The translations under genes and the position numbers were made by a program. From a virus (taxonomy: Duplodnaviria; Heunggongvirae; Uroviricota; Caudoviricetes), in the IMG/VR virus record IMGVR_UViG_2526164666_000018, positions 1 to 8,653 of that record: DNA of 8,653 nt, one strand, 5' to 3'. The notes under the pieces are model-generated. The model ran no database searches. It worked only from the letters and a program-made list of their open reading frames with translations, and had not been told where the DNA came from. Each line of letters begins with the position of its first letter. Positions within the stretch are counted from its first letter, which is position 1. Below, piece after piece: positions 1,007 to 4,690 of this stretch.

Positions 1007-1558
1007 ATGACTCAAAACTATGAACTGATTGTGAAAGGGATCCGCAATTTTGAGAATAAAGTTACGGTAACCTTAGCGTTACGGGACAAAAAACGCTTTG
1101 ACGGTGAAATTTTTGACCTGGACATCTCGCTGGACCGTGTTGAAGGTGCCGCGCTGGAGTTTTATGAGGCAGCAGCCAGAAGGAGCATCAGACAGGTCTT
1201 CCTGGATGTTGCTGCCGGGTTATGTGAAGGGGGTGAGCAGTCGCCGGAAAAGCGCCCCATAATTTTAGAGGCGCAGAATGTGTGGATAACCTACAAAGGA
1301 AAGCTACCGGGAAGAATTACTGGTTCTCTGAAGACTCCACCGGCGGCATTGCGGTCAGAAAAAGACGATATTGAATCGCCCATTGAAAAACTGGAGGGCA
1401 GAGTCGCTGATCTGAATAAAAAATTGTCGGTGCTGATCCCTTCTGAAGATGAAAAAAAACGCCGCGATGAGCAGTTTGCGGCGTTTTACGATTATTGCAT
1501 TGAGGTTACTCGCAGGAATTTTGTGAAGATTTTTGAGGAGGGTAAATCTCTTCAGTAA
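1007..1558 (+). CDS. Hypothetical 183-aa soluble protein inserted between holin and endolysin; function unknown
   Basis: ATG at 1007 lies 4 nt after the S stop (1000-1002) with GGGGAGAG upstream, suggesting translational coupling to S within the late operon. No TM segment and no recognisable catalytic motif; the C-terminal half is charged and helical-looking (IEKLEGRVADLNKKLSVLI). Confidence 0.7.
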   Translation: MTQNYELIVKGIRNFENKVTVTLALRDKKRFDGEIFDLDISLDRVEGAALEFYEAAARRSIRQVFLDVAAGLCEGGEQSPEKRPIILEAQNVWITYKGKLPGRITGSLKTPPAALRSEKDDIESPIEKLEGRVADLNKKLSVLIPSEDEKKRRDEQFAAFYDYCIEVTRRNFVKIFEEGKSLQ

Positions 1559-1768
1559 GCTTAATGGCGGACTCTGCAATTAATTCTGGAAGGTCCGCAA
1601 GGTCATCTGTCAGTGGGAATGATGAAAAATCGGCGGCAGTTCTGTTAAGAATTGTTTTAACGAACTCCTTTTCATTATCCGGCAACAAGTTGATTAGAGC
1701 CACGACAGCTTGCCTGAGTGCGATTAAATCAGCAAAAGTTTGTTTTGGTAGATTTGGATAATCCATAG
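1506..1768 (-). CDS. Hypothetical 87-aa acidic protein, antisense to and overlapping the 3' end of the 183-aa gene
   Basis: Minus-strand ATG at 1766-1768 preceded by AGAGGTGA (reverse complement of 1774-1781) at good spacing. Product begins MDYPNLPKQTFADLIALRQ and ends QNSCE, stop at 1506-1508. The track's longer 1506..1991 version would run into R and lacks this RBS. Confidence 0.45.
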
Positions 1769-1877: not shown

Positions 1878-2411
1878 ATGAACGCAAAAATCAAATACGG
1901 CCTGTCGGCTGCCGTTCTGGCGCTGATTGGTGCAGGGGCGTCTGCGCCTGAAATCCTCGACCAGTTTCTGGATGAAAAGGAAGGTAACCACACCACGGCA
2001 TACCGTGATGGTGCGGGTATCTGGACCATCTGCCGTGGAGCCACCCGGGTGGATGGTAAGCCTGTTATTCCTGGCATGAAACTGACGAAGGAAAAATGCG
2101 ACCAGGTTAACGCTATTGAACGTGATAAGGCGCTGGCATGGGTGGAGAAAAACATCCGGGTGCCGCTGACCGAACCCCAGAAAGCGGGGATCGCGTCATT
2201 CTGTCCGTACAACATTGGCCCCGGTAAGTGCTTCCCGTCGACGTTTTATAAACGAATTAATGCAGGCGATCGAAAAGGTGCCTGTGAGGCGATTCGCTGG
2301 TGGATTAAGGACGGTGGCAGAGACTGCCGTATCCGTTCAAATAATTGCTACGGTCAGGTCTCACGGCGTGACCAGGAGAGCGCGCTGGCGTGCTGGGACA
2401 TCGACAGATAG
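1878..2411 (+). CDS. R: SAR (signal-anchor-release) endolysin, T4-lysozyme-like muramidase, Stx-phage R type
   Basis: 177 aa. N-terminal Gly/Ala-rich weakly hydrophobic segment (YGLSAAVLALIGAGASA) typical of SAR domains, followed by an E-x8-D-x5-T catalytic pattern (EGNHTTAYRDGAGIWT). Closely resembles the R endolysin of Stx2 phages as I recall it. Pairs with the pinholin. Confidence 0.9.
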   Translation: MNAKIKYGLSAAVLALIGAGASAPEILDQFLDEKEGNHTTAYRDGAGIWTICRGATRVDGKPVIPGMKLTKEKCDQVNAIERDKALAWVEKNIRVPLTEPQKAGIASFCPYNIGPGKCFPSTFYKRINAGDRKGACEAIRWWIKDGGRDCRIRSNNCYGQVSRRDQESALACWDIDR

Positions 2412-2502
2412 CAGAATATTTTCCTGAAAAATGACGTTGGCCAACGCGGGTGGATAACACGAAATCCTGAAAACTGGTAAAACCTAAGTGAATAAAAGTA
2501 AA

Positions 2503-2540
2503 AACCCCGTTTGTTGGCAGCAAGCGGGGTTTTGTGTTTT
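2503..2540. terminator. Candidate hairpin/terminator in the R-Rz spacer, plausible on either strand
   Basis: Stem AACCCCG (2503-2509) pairs with CGGGGTT (2525-2531) across a 15-nt loop, followed on + by TTGTGTTTT and preceded by AAAA (a U-run on the minus strand). The large loop lowers confidence. Confidence 0.4.
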
Positions 2541-2746
2541 CTGACCTTGAGCAAGGCAAGGGAGAAATTATGGGTAGGGAGGTACTTTCCCTGTGAGGAA
2601 GTATAAAAGATTCTTTCTGAGGTTGTCCATTATGAAAGGCATTGAAGTGGAGACGCCAGCCAGTCTGGATTTAACAAGAGCGGCAGCTTTTGCCATTCGT
2701 ATTGTGGCCATTGCTGTTCTGGTCTGGGCAATCCGTTGGTGGTGAT

Positions 2747-3214
2747 ATGAACCGTGTTCTGTGCGTGGTTATCATTGTCCTGCTGGTGGCCTGTGGTGCG
2801 CTTAGTCTGGGGCTGAATCATTACCGTGATCACGCCATCATCTACAAAGAGCAGCGCGATAAAAAAGCCAGTGAGCTGGAGCTGGCGAACGCGACAATTA
2901 CTGATATGCAGATACGCCAGCGTGATGTCGCTGCACTTGATGCCAGATACTCGAGGGAATTAGCCGATGCGAGAGCTGAAAATGAAACTCTGCGTGCTGA
3001 TGTTGCCGCTGGTCGTAAGCGCCTGCGGATCAACGCCACCTGCTCCGGTACCGTGCGTGAAGCCACCGGCACCTCCGGCGTGGATAATGCAACCGGCCCC
3101 CGACTGGCAGACACCGCTGAACGGGATTATTTCATCCTCAGAGAACGGCTGATGGCAATGCAGAAGCAACTGGAAGGAGCACAGGAATATATCCGTACCC
3201 AGTGTATACCGTGA
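2747..3214 (+). CDS. Rz: Rz i-spanin (inner-membrane spanin subunit)
   Basis: Translation from the ATG at 2747 (MNRVLCVVIIVLLVACGALSLGLNHYRDHAIIYKEQRDK...) has an N-terminal TM helix and coiled-coil periplasmic domain and is highly similar to lambda Rz. The track ORF 2690..3214 has an N-terminal extension not matching Rz. Confidence 0.9.
   Translation: MNRVLCVVIIVLLVACGALSLGLNHYRDHAIIYKEQRDKKASELELANATITDMQIRQRDVAALDARYSRELADARAENETLRADVAAGRKRLRINATCSGTVREATGTSGVDNATGPRLADTAERDYFILRERLMAMQKQLEGAQEYIRTQCIP
2967..3152 (+). CDS. Rz1: Rz1 o-spanin lipoprotein, embedded in the +1 frame within Rz
   Basis: 61 aa with a lipobox (LPLVVSAC) and a proline-rich mature part (PPAPVPCVKPPAPPAWIMQPAPDWQTPLNGII), fully embedded in Rz as in lambda. 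An alternative start is the Met at 2982. Confidence 0.85.
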   Translation: MRELKMKLCVLMLPLVVSACGSTPPAPVPCVKPPAPPAWIMQPAPDWQTPLNGIISSSENG

Positions 3215-3679
3215 TATTTTGTTATGAAGGTGTTACTGGTAACGTTAAGGTAATTTAACAAAGAGTCAGTTCCGGACTTTATAGTGTGCTCAGTTCATGG
3301 CCAAAAACGATTTCTGTGATAAATATTTTGAATATTATTTACAGGTAAATGGAGTGGGGCACATGGATAGAAATATTACAATAGAGAATGAAGTATATGC
3401 CCGTATTGTATGGGCAGAGAAGGCAAAAACACGGTAATTCCGTGTGTTGCCATGATACCTGATTGGCAGAATAGTTGTTTGGTTTTGAGTATATAGTCAG
3501 CGTTTTTTGTTCAGTAATTGCTCCCTCAAAAAATAATAAAACAAGGTGATTATTTTTGTTTATTATTTAGTTTTTTTTGTGTGTTGTTTTATTGTTTTTG
3601 CGTGGTTTGTTTTTTATTGTTATTTCATTAAGGGAAGGTAAATTCAGGATGGCAGTCTGTAGATAATCGGAGGTCACTT

Positions 3680-3994
3680 ATGCTACATGATCACGTGGCA
3701 GAATGTCTGGAGAAAAAAGGACTGTACCGGAGAGCAGCTGAACGATGGGCAAAAGTGATGGTACAGCTAAGTGATGACCAGAAAAGAAAAGTGGCGGCAC
3801 AGAAACGAGCAGAGTGTTTGCGTAAGGCGCGCCGGACTCCGGTTTCACCGGTGAACCTGACCGAAATAAAACAAGCGGTCAACAGACTACATTCTGAGTT
3901 GGGAATGGGATTTGAAGAGCGGCGGGTATTCCGACGATATAAAGGGACAGGAGAACAGAATACGTCCGGAAACGCGCGGTCAAAAAAATGCTAA
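3680..3994 (+). CDS. Small basic 104-aa protein, tentatively a PerC-family (Pch-like) transcriptional regulator; moron-type cargo
   Basis: GGAGGT at 3669-3674 lies 5 nt before the ATG. The N-terminal motif AECLEKKGLYRRAAERW resembles what I remember of PerC/Pch regulators from EPEC/EHEC; this assignment is from memory and unverified. The gene is flanked by AT-rich DNA and followed by a terminator. Confidence 0.6.
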   Translation: MLHDHVAECLEKKGLYRRAAERWAKVMVQLSDDQKRKVAAQKRAECLRKARRTPVSPVNLTEIKQAVNRLHSELGMGFEERRVFRRYKGTGEQNTSGNARSKKC

Positions 3995-4469: not shown

Positions 4470-4690
4470 ATTTTCGTGGGTCCTTTCCGGCGATCCGACA
4501 GGTTACGGGGCGGCGACCTCGCGGGTTTTCGCTATTTATGAAAATTTTCCGGGGAAAATCATGTCGGTACTTCTCGAACATAACTATTTGTTTTTCTAAT
4601 ATCGAATCCGTAAAGGTCCGACATGAAAACGCCTGAAAAAGTCATTTTCGGGCACTTTCATGTCGGACCCTGTATTTGTTGTGAGACTGT
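4470..4690 (+). other. cos: Phage cohesive-end site cos (cosQ-cosN-cosB); the 12-nt cohesive end GGGCGGCGACCT is at 4508-4519
   Basis: tcgtgggtcctttccggcgatccgacaggttacg|GGGCGGCGACCT|cgcgggttttcgctatttatgaaaattttccgg matches the lambda right-end/left-end junction almost base for base (from memory). Downstream are three CATGTCGG-type repeats at about 4556-4571, 4614-4632 (inverted) and 4650-4665, taken as cosB R elements, immediately upstream of Nu1. Confidence 0.85.

What the first reader, a model, noticed from the sequence alone, without database searches (positions are those of the whole stretch)
2412..2746. Unusual R-Rz spacer with a hairpin/terminator and a 37-codon hydrophobic micro-ORF stop-start coupled to Rz
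Endolysin and spanin genes are usually adjacent or overlapping; here they are 335 bp apart. The spacer holds a hairpin (2503-2531) with U-runs on both strands and a small ORF (2632..2745, MKGIEVETPASLDLTRAAAFAIRIVAIAVLVWAIRWW) with a GAGG upstream, a single hydrophobic helix, and a stop (2743-2745) one base before the Rz ATG (2747). It could be a small membrane peptide co-translated with the spanins or a remnant of a deleted gene (some Stx phages are reported to carry an extra gene near R/Rz; I cannot verify which).
Basis: partly seen in the sequence, partly recalled or inferred. Interest (0 to 1): 0.4.

Follow-up and report, generated by a model that had tools for sequence, protein, structure and literature searches.

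The report
Conserved microprotein gene between endolysin and spanin
The 335-base gap between the phage lysozyme and spanin genes holds a conserved, portable cassette (a hairpin plus a gene for a roughly 50-residue membrane microprotein of unknown function); it is not a deletion scar, and about one in eight complete E. coli genomes carry it.

Summary
R ends at 2411 and Rz starts at 2747. A strong hairpin lies at 2501-2533. An ORF ends at 2745, one base before the Rz ATG.

The ORF is a real gene. It is Sakai ECs_1094 (WP_000675931.1) and belongs to PHROG family 4493, whose function is unknown. Across lineages dN/dS is 0.03-0.19 while synonymous sites are saturated.

Distant homologues conserve a basic N-terminal extension (YKRFFLRLS). 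In the window this extension starts at GTG 2593, giving 50 aa. They also conserve the internal Met at 2632 and a GAGG built from a rare AGG codon. This suggests two starts giving a 50-aa and a 37-aa product.

Hairpin, leader and ORF move together as one cassette. It follows four different endolysin contexts. Its stop is always 0-2 bases from the next gene's ATG; that gene is usually Rz.

The most likely role is a late-expressed, C-terminally anchored membrane microprotein that assists lysis, possibly like a holin or antiholin. That role is inferred, not shown. The deletion-scar idea is rejected. An antisense sRNA or type I toxin reading remains a weak rival.

The parts
1878..2411 (+). Endolysin R. 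It is a phage-21-type lysozyme of 177 aa with an N-terminal hydrophobic segment.
   Evidence: Pfam PF00959, E 3e-25. PGAP annotates it as 'lysozyme' in the identical locus L001.
2412..2500 (+). 3' flank that travels with R. It ends in the motif AAGTGAATAAAAGTAAAAA, which is the A-tract of the hairpin.
   Evidence: About 88% identical in 150+ Stx phage records as far as window position 2567, whatever gene follows. In Sakai Sp10 the homology stops at GTGAATAAAGT, where the ant module begins.
2501..2533 (.). GC-rich hairpin with A-tract and U-tract. It looks like an intrinsic terminator on both strands and is a conserved part of the cassette.
   Evidence: Terminator scan, 15 pairs. RNAfold gives -20 kcal/mol; a hairpin sits at this position in all 29 distinct upstream sequences, although the automated search did not recover a clean stem in the Citrobacter one. 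5 of 14 consensus pairs keep pairing through changes on both sides. It is also present upstream of the distant homologues.
2570..2596 (+). Lineage-specific 8-codon upstream ORF (MGREVLSL*) with GGGAG at 2560-2564. Its TGA overlaps GTG 2593 (GTGA).
   Evidence: Read from the sequence. Its start and stop are kept in the window lineage and in Citrobacter, but the peptide sequence is not conserved.
2593..2745 (+). Long form of the microprotein gene, 50 codons, starting at GTG, with GGAGG at 2578-2582. The product has a basic N-terminal segment RKYKRFFLRLS, then an acidic linker, then a C-terminal helix.
   Evidence: The extension is conserved as protein in 8 lineages, with R6, R10 and L11 invariant. 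In L099, L104 and L105 the start codon directly follows an in-frame stop. GTG has become ATG in L054 and L094. PHROG 4493 is matched at profile positions 1-54 of 56 with E 1.4e-24, against 5.5e-16 for the 37-aa form. pN/pS of the extension is mostly 0.2-0.5.
2619..2622 (+). Internal Shine-Dalgarno sequence GAGG, formed by the Leu9-Arg10 codons (CTG AGG).
   Evidence: Arg10 uses the rare AGG codon in 7 of 8 lineages and AGA in the other, while Arg6 uses AGA or CGA. The block is nearly invariant even though synonymous sites in the ORF body are saturated.
2632..2745 (+). Short form, 37 codons from ATG. This is the ORF of the finding, equal to PGAP WP_000675931.1 and Sakai ECs_1094.
   Evidence: Annotation. 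dN/dS 0.03-0.19. The Met is present in every lineage. Only this form remains open in the Citrobacter lineage (1-nt deletion) and the LT-II lineage (GTG changed to GAG).
2743..2749 (+). Stop-start junction TGA-T-ATG between the microprotein gene and Rz.
   Evidence: Read from the sequence. The offset is identical in all loci that carry the cassette. The spacing is 0-2 nt in the distant homologues.
2747..3214 (+). Rz i-spanin, with the embedded Rz1 o-spanin at 2967-3152.
   Evidence: Pfam PF03245, E 8e-49. The Rz1 ORF has a lipobox. Sakai annotates the pair as ECs_1092 and ECs_1093.
2600..2629 (-). Speculative sigma-70-like promoter on the minus strand, TGGACA-18-TATACT. It could drive an antisense RNA of about 100 nt (roughly 2594 to 2486) ending at the hairpin.
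   Evidence: The consensus scan scores it 10 of 12, but the region is not enriched for such sites (2 found, 2.2 expected). The predicted RNA folds with z = -2.7. The hexamers coincide with the conserved codons Tyr-Lys and Leu-Ser, so their conservation is not independent evidence.

Best explanation
The spacer is a portable three-part cassette inserted into the late (lysis) operon of a lambdoid prophage.

Shown:
(1) A GC-rich, terminator-like hairpin comes first.
(2) A short leader follows.
(3) Then comes a gene for a microprotein of the PHROG 4493 family. Its stop codon abuts the start codon of the next gene, here Rz.
(4) The protein is under strong purifying selection.
(5) It has a basic N-terminal segment, an acidic linker and one C-terminal hydrophobic helix ending in (R/K)WW.

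Inferred from sequence:
(6) The gene has two starts. GTG 2593 gives a 50-aa form with about +4 extra charge N-terminal to the helix. ATG 2632, served by a GAGG built from a rare AGG codon, gives a 37-aa form.

Inferred from context:
(7) No plus-strand promoter is visible, and a terminator-like hairpin stands in front. The gene would therefore be expressed only when Q-modified polymerase reads through during lytic growth.
(8) The product then inserts into the inner membrane.
(9) Ribosomes terminating at TGA 2743-2745 re-initiate at the Rz ATG. This replaces the direct R-Rz overlap seen in simpler relatives.

Most likely function: an accessory lysis factor that acts on the membrane and tunes the timing or efficiency of permeabilisation. 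The long and short forms may behave like an antiholin and holin pair. This step is conjecture. It rests on gene position and the two-start layout only.
For: Real gene:
- dN/dS is 0.03-0.19 with dS about 1.5-2, and variable columns fall 11, 3 and 27 by codon position.
- PHROG 4493 match, E 1.4e-24, full length.
- A search of 1.84 billion representative proteins found only 21 clusters. All keep the motifs G-(L/I)-E, P, FA(I/V)R and (R/K)WW.

Long form and two starts: (start codon, Shine-Dalgarno sequence, conserved extension, AGG codon, invariant Met, lineages that keep only the short form).

Cassette behaviour:
- The same hairpin-leader-ORF unit follows a SAR-type lysozyme, a GH108 endolysin, an M15 peptidase, or the LT-II toxin genes.
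- It precedes three divergent Rz types or a 60-aa lipobox protein.
- The hairpin shows compensatory changes.

Link to lysis, in five of six divergent lineages:
- L100: endolysin, cassette, Rz.
- L105: lambda-type holin, endolysin fragment, cassette, then a DUF3757 gene, then an Rz-like spanin.
- L099: the cassette overlaps the start of a TM-anchored lysozyme, which is the holin position; no holin was detected among the neighbouring ORFs scanned.

Membrane helix: the best 17-residue segment is residues 18-34 of the short form, mean Kyte-Doolittle 2.5. AlphaFold2 pLDDT is 92-94 for residues 31-50.

Baseline architecture without a spacer: K-12 Qin and Sakai Sp3 have R and Rz overlapping by 4 nt.
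Against: - No experiment or paper on this protein was found.
- It has no similarity to any Pfam, NCBIfam or PADLOC family, including holin families.
- In one distant lineage (L101-L103) the cassette sits between a gpV-like spike gene and baseplate genes, not in a lysis cassette.
- Its neighbours use at least three unrelated holin and endolysin sets, so no specific lysis partner is implied.
- The charged domain is N-terminal, whereas classical holins have a charged C-terminal tail.
- The helix is only marginally hydrophobic and contains an Arg.
- The two starts are 13 codons apart, whereas (from general knowledge) the dual starts of lambda S and phage 21 S are one to three codons apart.
- Use of either start is not demonstrated.
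- A real terminator inside an essential operon (L101) would be hard to reconcile with pure insulation.
Confidence: 0.55

Rival explanations
1. Type I toxin-antitoxin-like or antisense-RNA module. A minus-strand promoter inside the 5' end of the gene (TGGACA-18-TATACT, 2629..2600) would drive an sRNA of about 100 nt that ends at the hairpin. That sRNA would be complementary to the leader, the upstream ORF and its Shine-Dalgarno sequence. It would silence leaky synthesis of a toxic membrane peptide in lysogens, or act in trans on host RNAs.
For: - Promoter-like site scoring 10 of 12.
- The predicted RNA has three hairpins including a terminator and U-tail, z = -2.7.
- The minus-strand U-tract is kept even where the plus-strand one is lost, as in the LT-II lineage.
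- The left border of the cassette coincides with that U-tract.
- The layout of upstream ORF, overlapping GTGA and main ORF recalls mok/hok (general knowledge).
- Published RNA-seq and Ribo-seq report a weak antisense-strand signal, XECs106, at Sakai 1184893-1184994. This maps to window 2365-2466 on the minus strand, just beyond the hairpin.
Against: - Promoter-like sites are not enriched in the region (2 found, 2.2 expected).
- The hexamers fall on conserved codons (Tyr-Lys, Leu-Ser), which explains their conservation. They are poor in L099 and L105.
- The body of the putative RNA is poorly conserved between lineages.
- Rfam has no match in the spacer.
- None of the peaks in the Hfq-bound sRNA table for Sakai (Table S2 of PMC4104026) falls in the Sp4 spacer.
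- There is no similarity to the Pfam type I toxin families.
Confidence: 0.15
2. A coupling or insulating device only. The ORF would exist to carry ribosomes from the leader to the next gene after a terminator-bearing insertion broke the native R-Rz overlap. The peptide itself would have no function.
For: - The stop lies 0-2 nt from the downstream ATG in every context, whatever the downstream gene is.
- The C-terminal WW-stop codons (TGGTGGTGA) supply the only Shine-Dalgarno-like sequence in front of Rz.
- The 3' half of the ORF travels with Rz in recombinants such as L003.
Against: - Amino-acid sequence is strongly conserved along the whole ORF (dN/dS 0.03-0.19).
- Motifs persist at about 50% identity in distant phages.
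- A pure ribosome shuttle needs neither a hydrophobic helix nor a conserved basic N-terminus.
Confidence: 0.12
3. A late-expressed membrane microprotein with a role unrelated to lysis, for example superinfection exclusion, interference with a host membrane protein, or defence or counter-defence. On this view it merely uses the endolysin-spanin junction as a permissive insertion site.
For: - The junction is a general insertion hotspot. It holds ant plus PHROG 4906 in Sp10, PHROG 6632 in a Stx2a phage, four tandem small membrane ORFs in vB_EcoS-569R3, and the LT-II toxin genes.
- One lineage carries the cassette among baseplate genes.
- No specific lysis partner co-varies with it.
Against: - No plus-strand promoter is apparent, and a terminator-like hairpin stands upstream, so expression in the lysogen is unlikely (with inspection).
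- Five of six divergent lineages place it next to an endolysin or spanin.
- No PADLOC match.
Confidence: 0.13
4. Deletion scar or remnant of a larger gene with a fortuitous ORF.
For: - Chimeric and truncated variants exist, such as the 28-aa MSAELIRA... form and N-terminal swaps with PHROG 4906.
- Related phages carry larger inserts at the same site.
Against: - The cassette is complete and identical in hundreds of genomes.
- It is under purifying selection.
- It has its own conserved start signals and hairpin in distant phages.
Confidence: 0.03

Closest known systems
PHROG families 4493, 1115 and 3246 (phage proteins of unknown function)
   Same: The 50-aa form matches the PHROG 4493 profile at positions 1-54 of 56 (E 1.4e-24). 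It also matches PHROG 1115 (E 2e-11) and PHROG 3246 (E 9e-5). The 38-aa PHROG 1115 ORF in vB_EcoS-569R3 shares the R-A-x-A-F-A-I-(R/K) core.
   Different: These families carry no functional annotation, so membership names the gene without explaining it. PHROG 1115 and 3246 members have a longer and different C-terminus.
Dual-start holin and antiholin genes (lambda S105/S107, phage 21 S68/S71, P22 gene 13); recalled from general knowledge
   Same: It is a small membrane protein gene in a lysis cassette. It has two in-frame starts, and the longer product carries extra positive charge at the N-terminus. The shorter product suffices where the upstream start has been lost. In one lineage (L099) the gene sits directly before an endolysin and overlaps it.
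   Different: There is no sequence similarity to any Pfam holin family. It has one C-terminal helix rather than two or three transmembrane domains. It lacks a charged C-terminal tail. The starts are 13 codons apart rather than one to three. In E. coli it lies after the endolysin, in cassettes that already have a holin. Hole formation has not been tested.
hok/mok/sok-type type I toxin-antitoxin loci; recalled from general knowledge
   Same: It encodes a small hydrophobic peptide. A short upstream ORF has a stop overlapping the main start. A possible antisense promoter and terminator would give an RNA complementary to the leader.
   Different: There is no homology to the Hok, Ldr, TisB, Ibs, Sho or Zor families. 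The antisense RNA is unproven. The locus sits inside a late operon and is coupled to a downstream structural or lysis gene.
Morons of lambdoid phages (Hendrix-type extra transcription units between conserved genes); recalled from general knowledge
   Same: It is an extra unit inserted at a junction that is seamless in relatives (K-12 Qin, Sakai Sp3). It is mosaic and exchanged horizontally between unrelated backbones.
   Different: A classical moron has its own promoter upstream and a terminator downstream, and is expressed from the prophage. Here the terminator-like hairpin is upstream, no plus-strand promoter is seen, and the ORF is translationally tied to the next gene.
Other small membrane ORFs at the same R-Rz junction (PHROG 6632 in Stx2a phage EH2201, PHROG 4906 in Sakai Sp10 and 933W-like phages)
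   Same: They occupy the same position, are 43-48 aa long, have a single hydrophobic helix, and end a few bases before the Rz ATG. PHROG 6632 also ends in IRWW and follows the same hairpin.
   Different: No significant sequence similarity was detected outside the shared IRWW end, which belongs to the Rz-proximal junction. Their functions are also unknown.

Membership tests
PHROG 4493 (uncharacterised phage microprotein family) | Significant full-length match to the family profile HMM | tested here: met
   50-aa form: E 1.4e-24, profile positions 1-54 of 56. 37-aa form: E 5.5e-16, profile positions 14-54.
Holin / antiholin | Small integral membrane protein with at least one transmembrane domain | tested here: met
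   One hydrophobic segment at residues 18-34 of the short form, mean Kyte-Doolittle 2.5, containing one Arg. AlphaFold2 predicts a helix with pLDDT 92-94 over the C-terminal 20 residues. This is prediction only.
Holin / antiholin | Encoded in the lysis cassette next to the endolysin | tested here: met
   It lies between the endolysin and Rz in the window and in most loci. It overlaps the start of an endolysin in L099. Exception: L101-L103, where it sits among baseplate genes.
Holin / antiholin | Highly charged hydrophilic C-terminal (cytoplasmic) tail | tested here: not met
   The protein ends ...AIRWW directly after the helix. The charged segment (RKYKRFFLRLS) is N-terminal.
Holin / antiholin | Dual-start motif giving two products that differ in N-terminal charge | tested here: inconclusive
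   Use of either start in vivo has not been shown.
Holin / antiholin | Sequence membership in a described holin family | tested here: not met
   No Pfam hit at E <= 1 for the short form or E <= 0.1 for the long form. No NCBIfam hit for the short form.
Holin / antiholin | Timed lethal permeabilisation of the membrane, and release or activation of the endolysin | not testable with these tools
   This needs expression and lysis assays.
Type I toxin-antitoxin | Small hydrophobic peptide of 60 aa or fewer | tested here: met
   37 or 50 aa with a hydrophobic C-terminus.
Type I toxin-antitoxin | Cognate antisense or divergent sRNA with its own promoter and terminator | tested here: inconclusive
   A promoter-like site scores 10 of 12 but the region is not enriched for such sites. 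The predicted RNA folds well. No Rfam match. No listed Hfq peak lies in the Sakai Sp4 spacer. A weak antisense signal, XECs106, lies nearby.
Type I toxin-antitoxin | Homology to a known toxin family (Hok, Ldr, TisB, Ibs, ShoB, Zor, DinQ) | tested here: not met
   No Pfam match.
Spanin (Rz / Rz1) | i-spanin: N-terminal transmembrane domain plus a long periplasmic coiled coil. o-spanin: lipobox Cys. | tested here: not met
   The protein is 37-50 aa, has its helix at the C-terminus, and has no Cys. The true Rz (PF03245) and Rz1 follow at 2747 and 2967.
Moron | Autonomous unit with its own promoter upstream and terminator downstream | tested here: not met
   No plus-strand promoter-like site lies between the hairpin and the ORF, and the hairpin is upstream.
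Rho-independent terminator | GC-rich stem-loop followed by a U-run | tested here: met
   Consensus scan. Stem energy -20 kcal/mol and conserved with compensatory changes. Termination in vivo cannot be tested here.

The most novel reading that the evidence does not exclude
The cassette encodes a previously unrecognised kind of portable lysis regulator or pinholin. It would be a single-helix, C-terminally anchored microprotein made in two forms from one gene. The basic 50-aa form would be held N-in as an inhibitor. The acidic-tipped 37-aa form would be the active, membrane-depolarising species. It would plug into unrelated lysis cassettes and carry its own insulating hairpin and a built-in hand-off of ribosomes to the next gene. 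In phages such as L099 it would be the only holin serving a membrane-anchored endolysin.
Probability: 0.2. Interest if true: 0.65.

Novelty: new member of a known kind. Interest (0 to 1): 0.45.

Why it matters
Lysis timing sets phage burst size. In Shiga-toxin and LT-II prophages it also governs toxin release.

This cassette sits inside the lysis operon of prophages in about 12% of complete E. coli genomes. These include O157:H7 Sakai (ECs_1094) and O103 and O145 strains. In LT-II prophages it lies about 0.6 kb downstream of the LT-II toxin genes.

It is annotated only as a 37-aa hypothetical protein. If the 50/37-aa pair modulates lysis, it would add a portable, single-helix component to the holin-endolysin-spanin scheme. 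It would also give a handle on toxin release.

Two practical points follow in any case. Current annotation probably truncates the gene. The endolysin-spanin junction is a recurrent slot for small membrane ORFs and toxin genes.

Tried and rejected
- Rfam scan of the whole window at E <= 1. Nothing in the spacer. The only hits were a spurious MIR8001 hairpin at 4610-4672 and a sub-threshold GcvB hit at 1451-1628.
- Pfam, NCBIfam and PADLOC scans of the peptide. No match.
- Literature searches for the accession, the peptide sequence, ECs1094, 'between R and Rz', and lysis-cassette small-ORF terms. Nothing specific.
- Known EHEC prophage sRNAs.
  - AgvB and AsxR lie upstream of the lysis genes.
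  - EcOnc32 and EcOnc13 lie upstream of the Sp3 holin.
  - EcOnc11 lies 3' of Rz in Sp10 and has no homologue in the window.
  - No listed peak falls in the Sp4 spacer.
- Cappable-seq supplements for EDL933, searched by promoter sequence strings. No hit, and the files are truncated as stored.
- The Enterobacteriaceae microproteome preprint. It does not mention prophage or lysis genes.
- tblastn of the peptide against phage genomes. The low-complexity filter masks the helix, so only GER2 and phiSTEC1575-Stx2k were found.
- The idea that the invariant 40-nt leader block proves an antisense promoter. Dropped once distant homologues showed that the block is coding and carries the internal ribosome-binding site.
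- The idea that the microprotein plus the 60-aa lipobox protein form a miniature spanin. Rejected on size: at most about 16 plus 30 periplasmic residues.
- AlphaFold2 model. One long helix with a low-confidence N-terminal half. It was not informative enough for a fold search.
Full report
**What the window is.** It is the late region of a lambdoid (Stx-phage-like) prophage. The layout is as follows.
- Phage-21-type holin at 796-1002.
- A DUF1327/YdfR-like ORF at 1007-1558.
- A minus-strand 86-aa gene at 1766..1506.
- Lysozyme R at 1878-2411.
- Rz at 2747-3214, with Rz1 embedded at 2967-3152.
- A PerC/Pch-family regulator at 3680-3994.
- The small and large terminase subunits from 4694 onward.

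The stretch 2350-2800 is 100% identical in many E. coli chromosomes, including O103, O145 and O157:H7 strains. It is present at 80% coverage or more in 668 of 5426 complete genomes. In O157:H7 Sakai it lies in prophage Sp4 at 99.6% identity over 501 nt. There the ORF of the finding is annotated as ECs_1094. PGAP calls it WP_000675931.1, 'hypothetical protein'.

**Checking the observation.**
- The gap 2412-2746 is 335 nt.
- The hairpin spans 2501-2533, with 15 pairs and a stem energy of -20 kcal/mol. An A-run lies 5' of it and a U-run 3'.
- The 37-codon ORF runs 2632-2745, with GAGG at 2619-2622.
- The TGA at 2743-2745 lies one base before the Rz ATG.

Simpler relatives lack the gap. In K-12 Qin (rrrQ/rzpQ) and Sakai Sp3 the endolysin and Rz genes overlap by 4 nt.

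**The ORF is a real gene.** I compared six lineages: the window, phage GER2, a Citrobacter prophage, phage phiSTEC1575-Stx2k, a GH108-endolysin prophage and an LT-II toxin prophage.
- Nei-Gojobori dN/dS is 0.03-0.19, with dS about 1.5-2.
- Variable columns fall 11, 3 and 27 on codon positions 1, 2 and 3.
- The other two frames are full of stops.

The peptide matches PHROG 4493, whose function is unknown. It matches PHROG 1115 and 3246 more weakly. It matches nothing in Pfam, NCBIfam or PADLOC. A profile search of 1.84 billion representative proteins found only 21 clusters. The family is therefore small and essentially confined to enterobacterial phages and prophages.

**The gene is probably longer than annotated.** The 40 nt before ATG 2632 are almost invariant between lineages whose synonymous sites are otherwise saturated. 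That stretch is open in the frame of the ORF, and the few substitutions in it are mostly synonymous in that frame.

The decisive evidence comes from distant homologues at about 50% identity. All of them have these features.
- A GTG or ATG lies 11-13 codons upstream of the conserved Met and is preceded by a Shine-Dalgarno sequence. In L099, L104 and L105 it directly follows an in-frame stop.
- The intervening residues are conserved as protein (x-N/K-Y-K-R-F/I-F/L-L-R-L-S, with R6, R10 and L11 invariant) even though the codons differ.

Three further results agree.
- pN/pS of the extension is mostly 0.2-0.5.
- The PHROG 4493 profile has 13 N-terminal positions that only the long form fills. Its E-value is 1.4e-24, against 5.5e-16 for the short form.
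- In the window the long form starts at GTG 2593, with GGAGG at 2578-2582, and is 50 aa.

**Evidence for a second, internal start.**
- The Met at 2632 is present in every lineage.
- The GAGG before it is formed by Leu-Arg codons. That Arg uses the rare AGG codon in 7 of 8 lineages and AGA in the other. The other conserved Arg uses AGA or CGA.
- In two lineages only the short form can be made. Citrobacter has a 1-nt deletion. The LT-II lineage has GTG changed to GAG.
- In two other lineages the upstream GTG has become ATG.

I read this as a two-start gene producing a 50-aa and a 37-aa form. This is an inference from sequence only.

**The unit is a portable cassette.** Across 98 loci the hairpin, leader and ORF occur together.
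- Upstream neighbours are a SAR-type lysozyme, a GH108 endolysin, an M15 peptidase with a 93-aa ORF, or the LT-II enterotoxin A and B genes.
- Downstream neighbours are three divergent Rz types or a 60-aa lipobox protein (PHROG 7528).
- The junction is always TGA-N-ATG.

A hairpin sits at this position in all 29 distinct upstream sequences, although the automated search did not recover a clean stem in the Citrobacter one. Its stem sequence differs between lineages while pairing is kept. It also precedes the distant homologues.

The distant homologues sit in these contexts.
- L100: endolysin, cassette, Rz.
- L105: lambda-type holin, endolysin fragment, cassette, then a DUF3757 gene, then an Rz-like spanin.
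- L099: tail-fibre assembly gene, then the cassette overlapping the start of a 233-aa membrane-anchored lysozyme. No holin was detected among the neighbouring ORFs scanned.
- L101-L103: a gpV-like spike gene, the cassette, then gpW-like and baseplate J genes.

**The junction is a hotspot.** Other phages carry different inserts at the same place.
- A 45-aa PHROG 6632 membrane ORF that also ends in IRWW, in Stx2a phage EH2201.
- The antirepressor ant plus a 48-aa PHROG 4906 membrane ORF, in Sakai Sp10.
- Four tandem small membrane ORFs in vB_EcoS-569R3, including an unannotated 28-aa version of this protein.

Recombinant N-termini show that exchange happens inside the ORF at the AFAIR motif. The 3' half of the ORF travels with Rz.

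**How it most likely works.**

Shown: it is a conserved protein-coding gene. Its product has a basic N-terminal segment, an acidic linker and one C-terminal hydrophobic helix. A conserved terminator-like hairpin lies upstream. Its stop abuts the next start.

Inferred: no plus-strand promoter is visible and a terminator-like hairpin precedes the gene. It would therefore be made only during Q-antiterminated late transcription. The protein would insert into the inner membrane. Terminating ribosomes would re-initiate on Rz.

Conjectured: it is an accessory lysis factor. The positively charged long form and the short form would behave like an antiholin and holin pair. The grounds are gene position, the two-start layout and the L099 arrangement. 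Against this, it has no homology to known holins, it lacks a charged C-terminal tail, it has no fixed partner, and one lineage places it among baseplate genes.

**The antisense-RNA rival.** A minus-strand TGGACA-18-TATACT site at 2629..2600 could drive a roughly 100-nt RNA ending at the hairpin. A published Sakai data set lists a weak antisense signal just beyond the hairpin, XECs106, which maps to window 2365-2466 on the minus strand.

The case is weak for these reasons.
- The hexamers fall on conserved codons.
- Such sites are not enriched in the region.
- The RNA body is poorly conserved.
- Rfam has no match.
- None of the peaks in the published table of Hfq-bound sRNAs for Sakai falls in the spacer.

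I keep it at about 15%.

**Verdict.** The interpretation 'small membrane peptide coupled to Rz' is supported and can be sharpened: the gene is about 50 aa, probably has two starts, and is part of a portable hairpin-plus-gene cassette. The interpretation 'remnant of a deleted gene' is rejected. The gene is already annotated as hypothetical and already belongs to a PHROG family, so the ORF itself is not new. As far as the searched literature shows, its true extent, its cassette behaviour and its possible lysis role have not been described. Interest is moderate.

Noticed in passing
window 1506-1766 (minus strand), and the terminator-like hairpin near 1455-1480 (minus strand): An 86-aa minus-strand gene (PHROG 2572, E 2e-49) lies between the YdfR-like ORF and R. 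It is antisense to the late operon and overlaps the end of the 183-aa ORF. PGAP leaves it unannotated in the identical RM8385 locus, but Sakai annotates the equivalent as ECs_1097. A sub-threshold Rfam GcvB hit (19.8 bits, E 0.59) covers 1451-1628 on the minus strand, mainly through its terminator.
   Followed up: partly
window 1007-1558: The 183-aa DUF1327/YdfR-like ORF matches PHROG 2091 over its full length (183 of 183, E 2e-109). PGAP nevertheless marks the same ORF in RM8385 as an incomplete pseudogene covering only 2659-2994 of L001.
   Followed up: no
L013-L015, positions 2287-3424 (LT-II prophages): The heat-labile enterotoxin LT-II A and B genes sit in the same endolysin-to-cassette slot. 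A pertussis-toxin-S1-like gene lies further upstream. The microprotein cassette is therefore about 0.6 kb downstream of a toxin operon in these prophages.
   Followed up: partly
L003 (vB_EcoS-569R3), positions 612-1175: Four tandem small single-helix ORFs lie between R and Rz: PHROG 6632-like, PHROG 4906, PHROG 1115, and an unannotated 28-aa MSAELIRAMAFAIRIVAIAVLVWAIRWW at 1091-1175. The annotated start of the first ORF (GTG 612) lies inside the hairpin and is doubtful.
   Followed up: partly
L005 2655-2837, and 25 or more other loci: In many prophages the cassette is coupled to a 60-aa lipobox protein (PHROG 7528, MNRKHW...LLVGC...) instead of Rz, and no Rz/Rz1 was detected in the flanks fetched. 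Either these phages lack spanins here, or this lipoprotein has an unrecognised role.
   Followed up: no
L098 (Sakai Sp4, record 1182130-1189826): In Sakai the whole segment from holin through R, the microprotein gene and Rz to pchA is inverted relative to the Q-proximal esterase gene and the terminase genes. IS629 and ISEc8 copies bracket it. The late operon of Sp4 is therefore broken, yet the cassette sequence is 99.6% intact.
   Followed up: no
window 2365-2466 (minus strand): This corresponds to XECs106, a 'novel small gene' of Huecker et al. 2017 (PMC5597208). It has low RNA-seq and Ribo-seq signal (RPKM 6-60) antisense to the 3' end of R.
   Followed up: partly
window 2690-3214, compared with 2747-3214: Sakai annotates Rz (ECs_1092) from the upstream TTG, giving 174 aa that overlap the microprotein gene in another frame. 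PGAP and the position of the Rz N-terminal membrane helix favour ATG 2747.
   Followed up: no
window 3297-3445: A 46-aa ORF (PHROG 2157, E 3e-37) lies downstream of Rz. A minus-strand terminator-like hairpin at 3445..3429 follows it. Neither is annotated in RM8385.
   Followed up: no
window 4610-4672 (minus strand): A long imperfect inverted repeat lies just upstream of the small terminase gene. Rfam scored it as a spurious MIR8001 precursor (28.7 bits against a threshold of 90). It may be part of the cos region.
   Followed up: no
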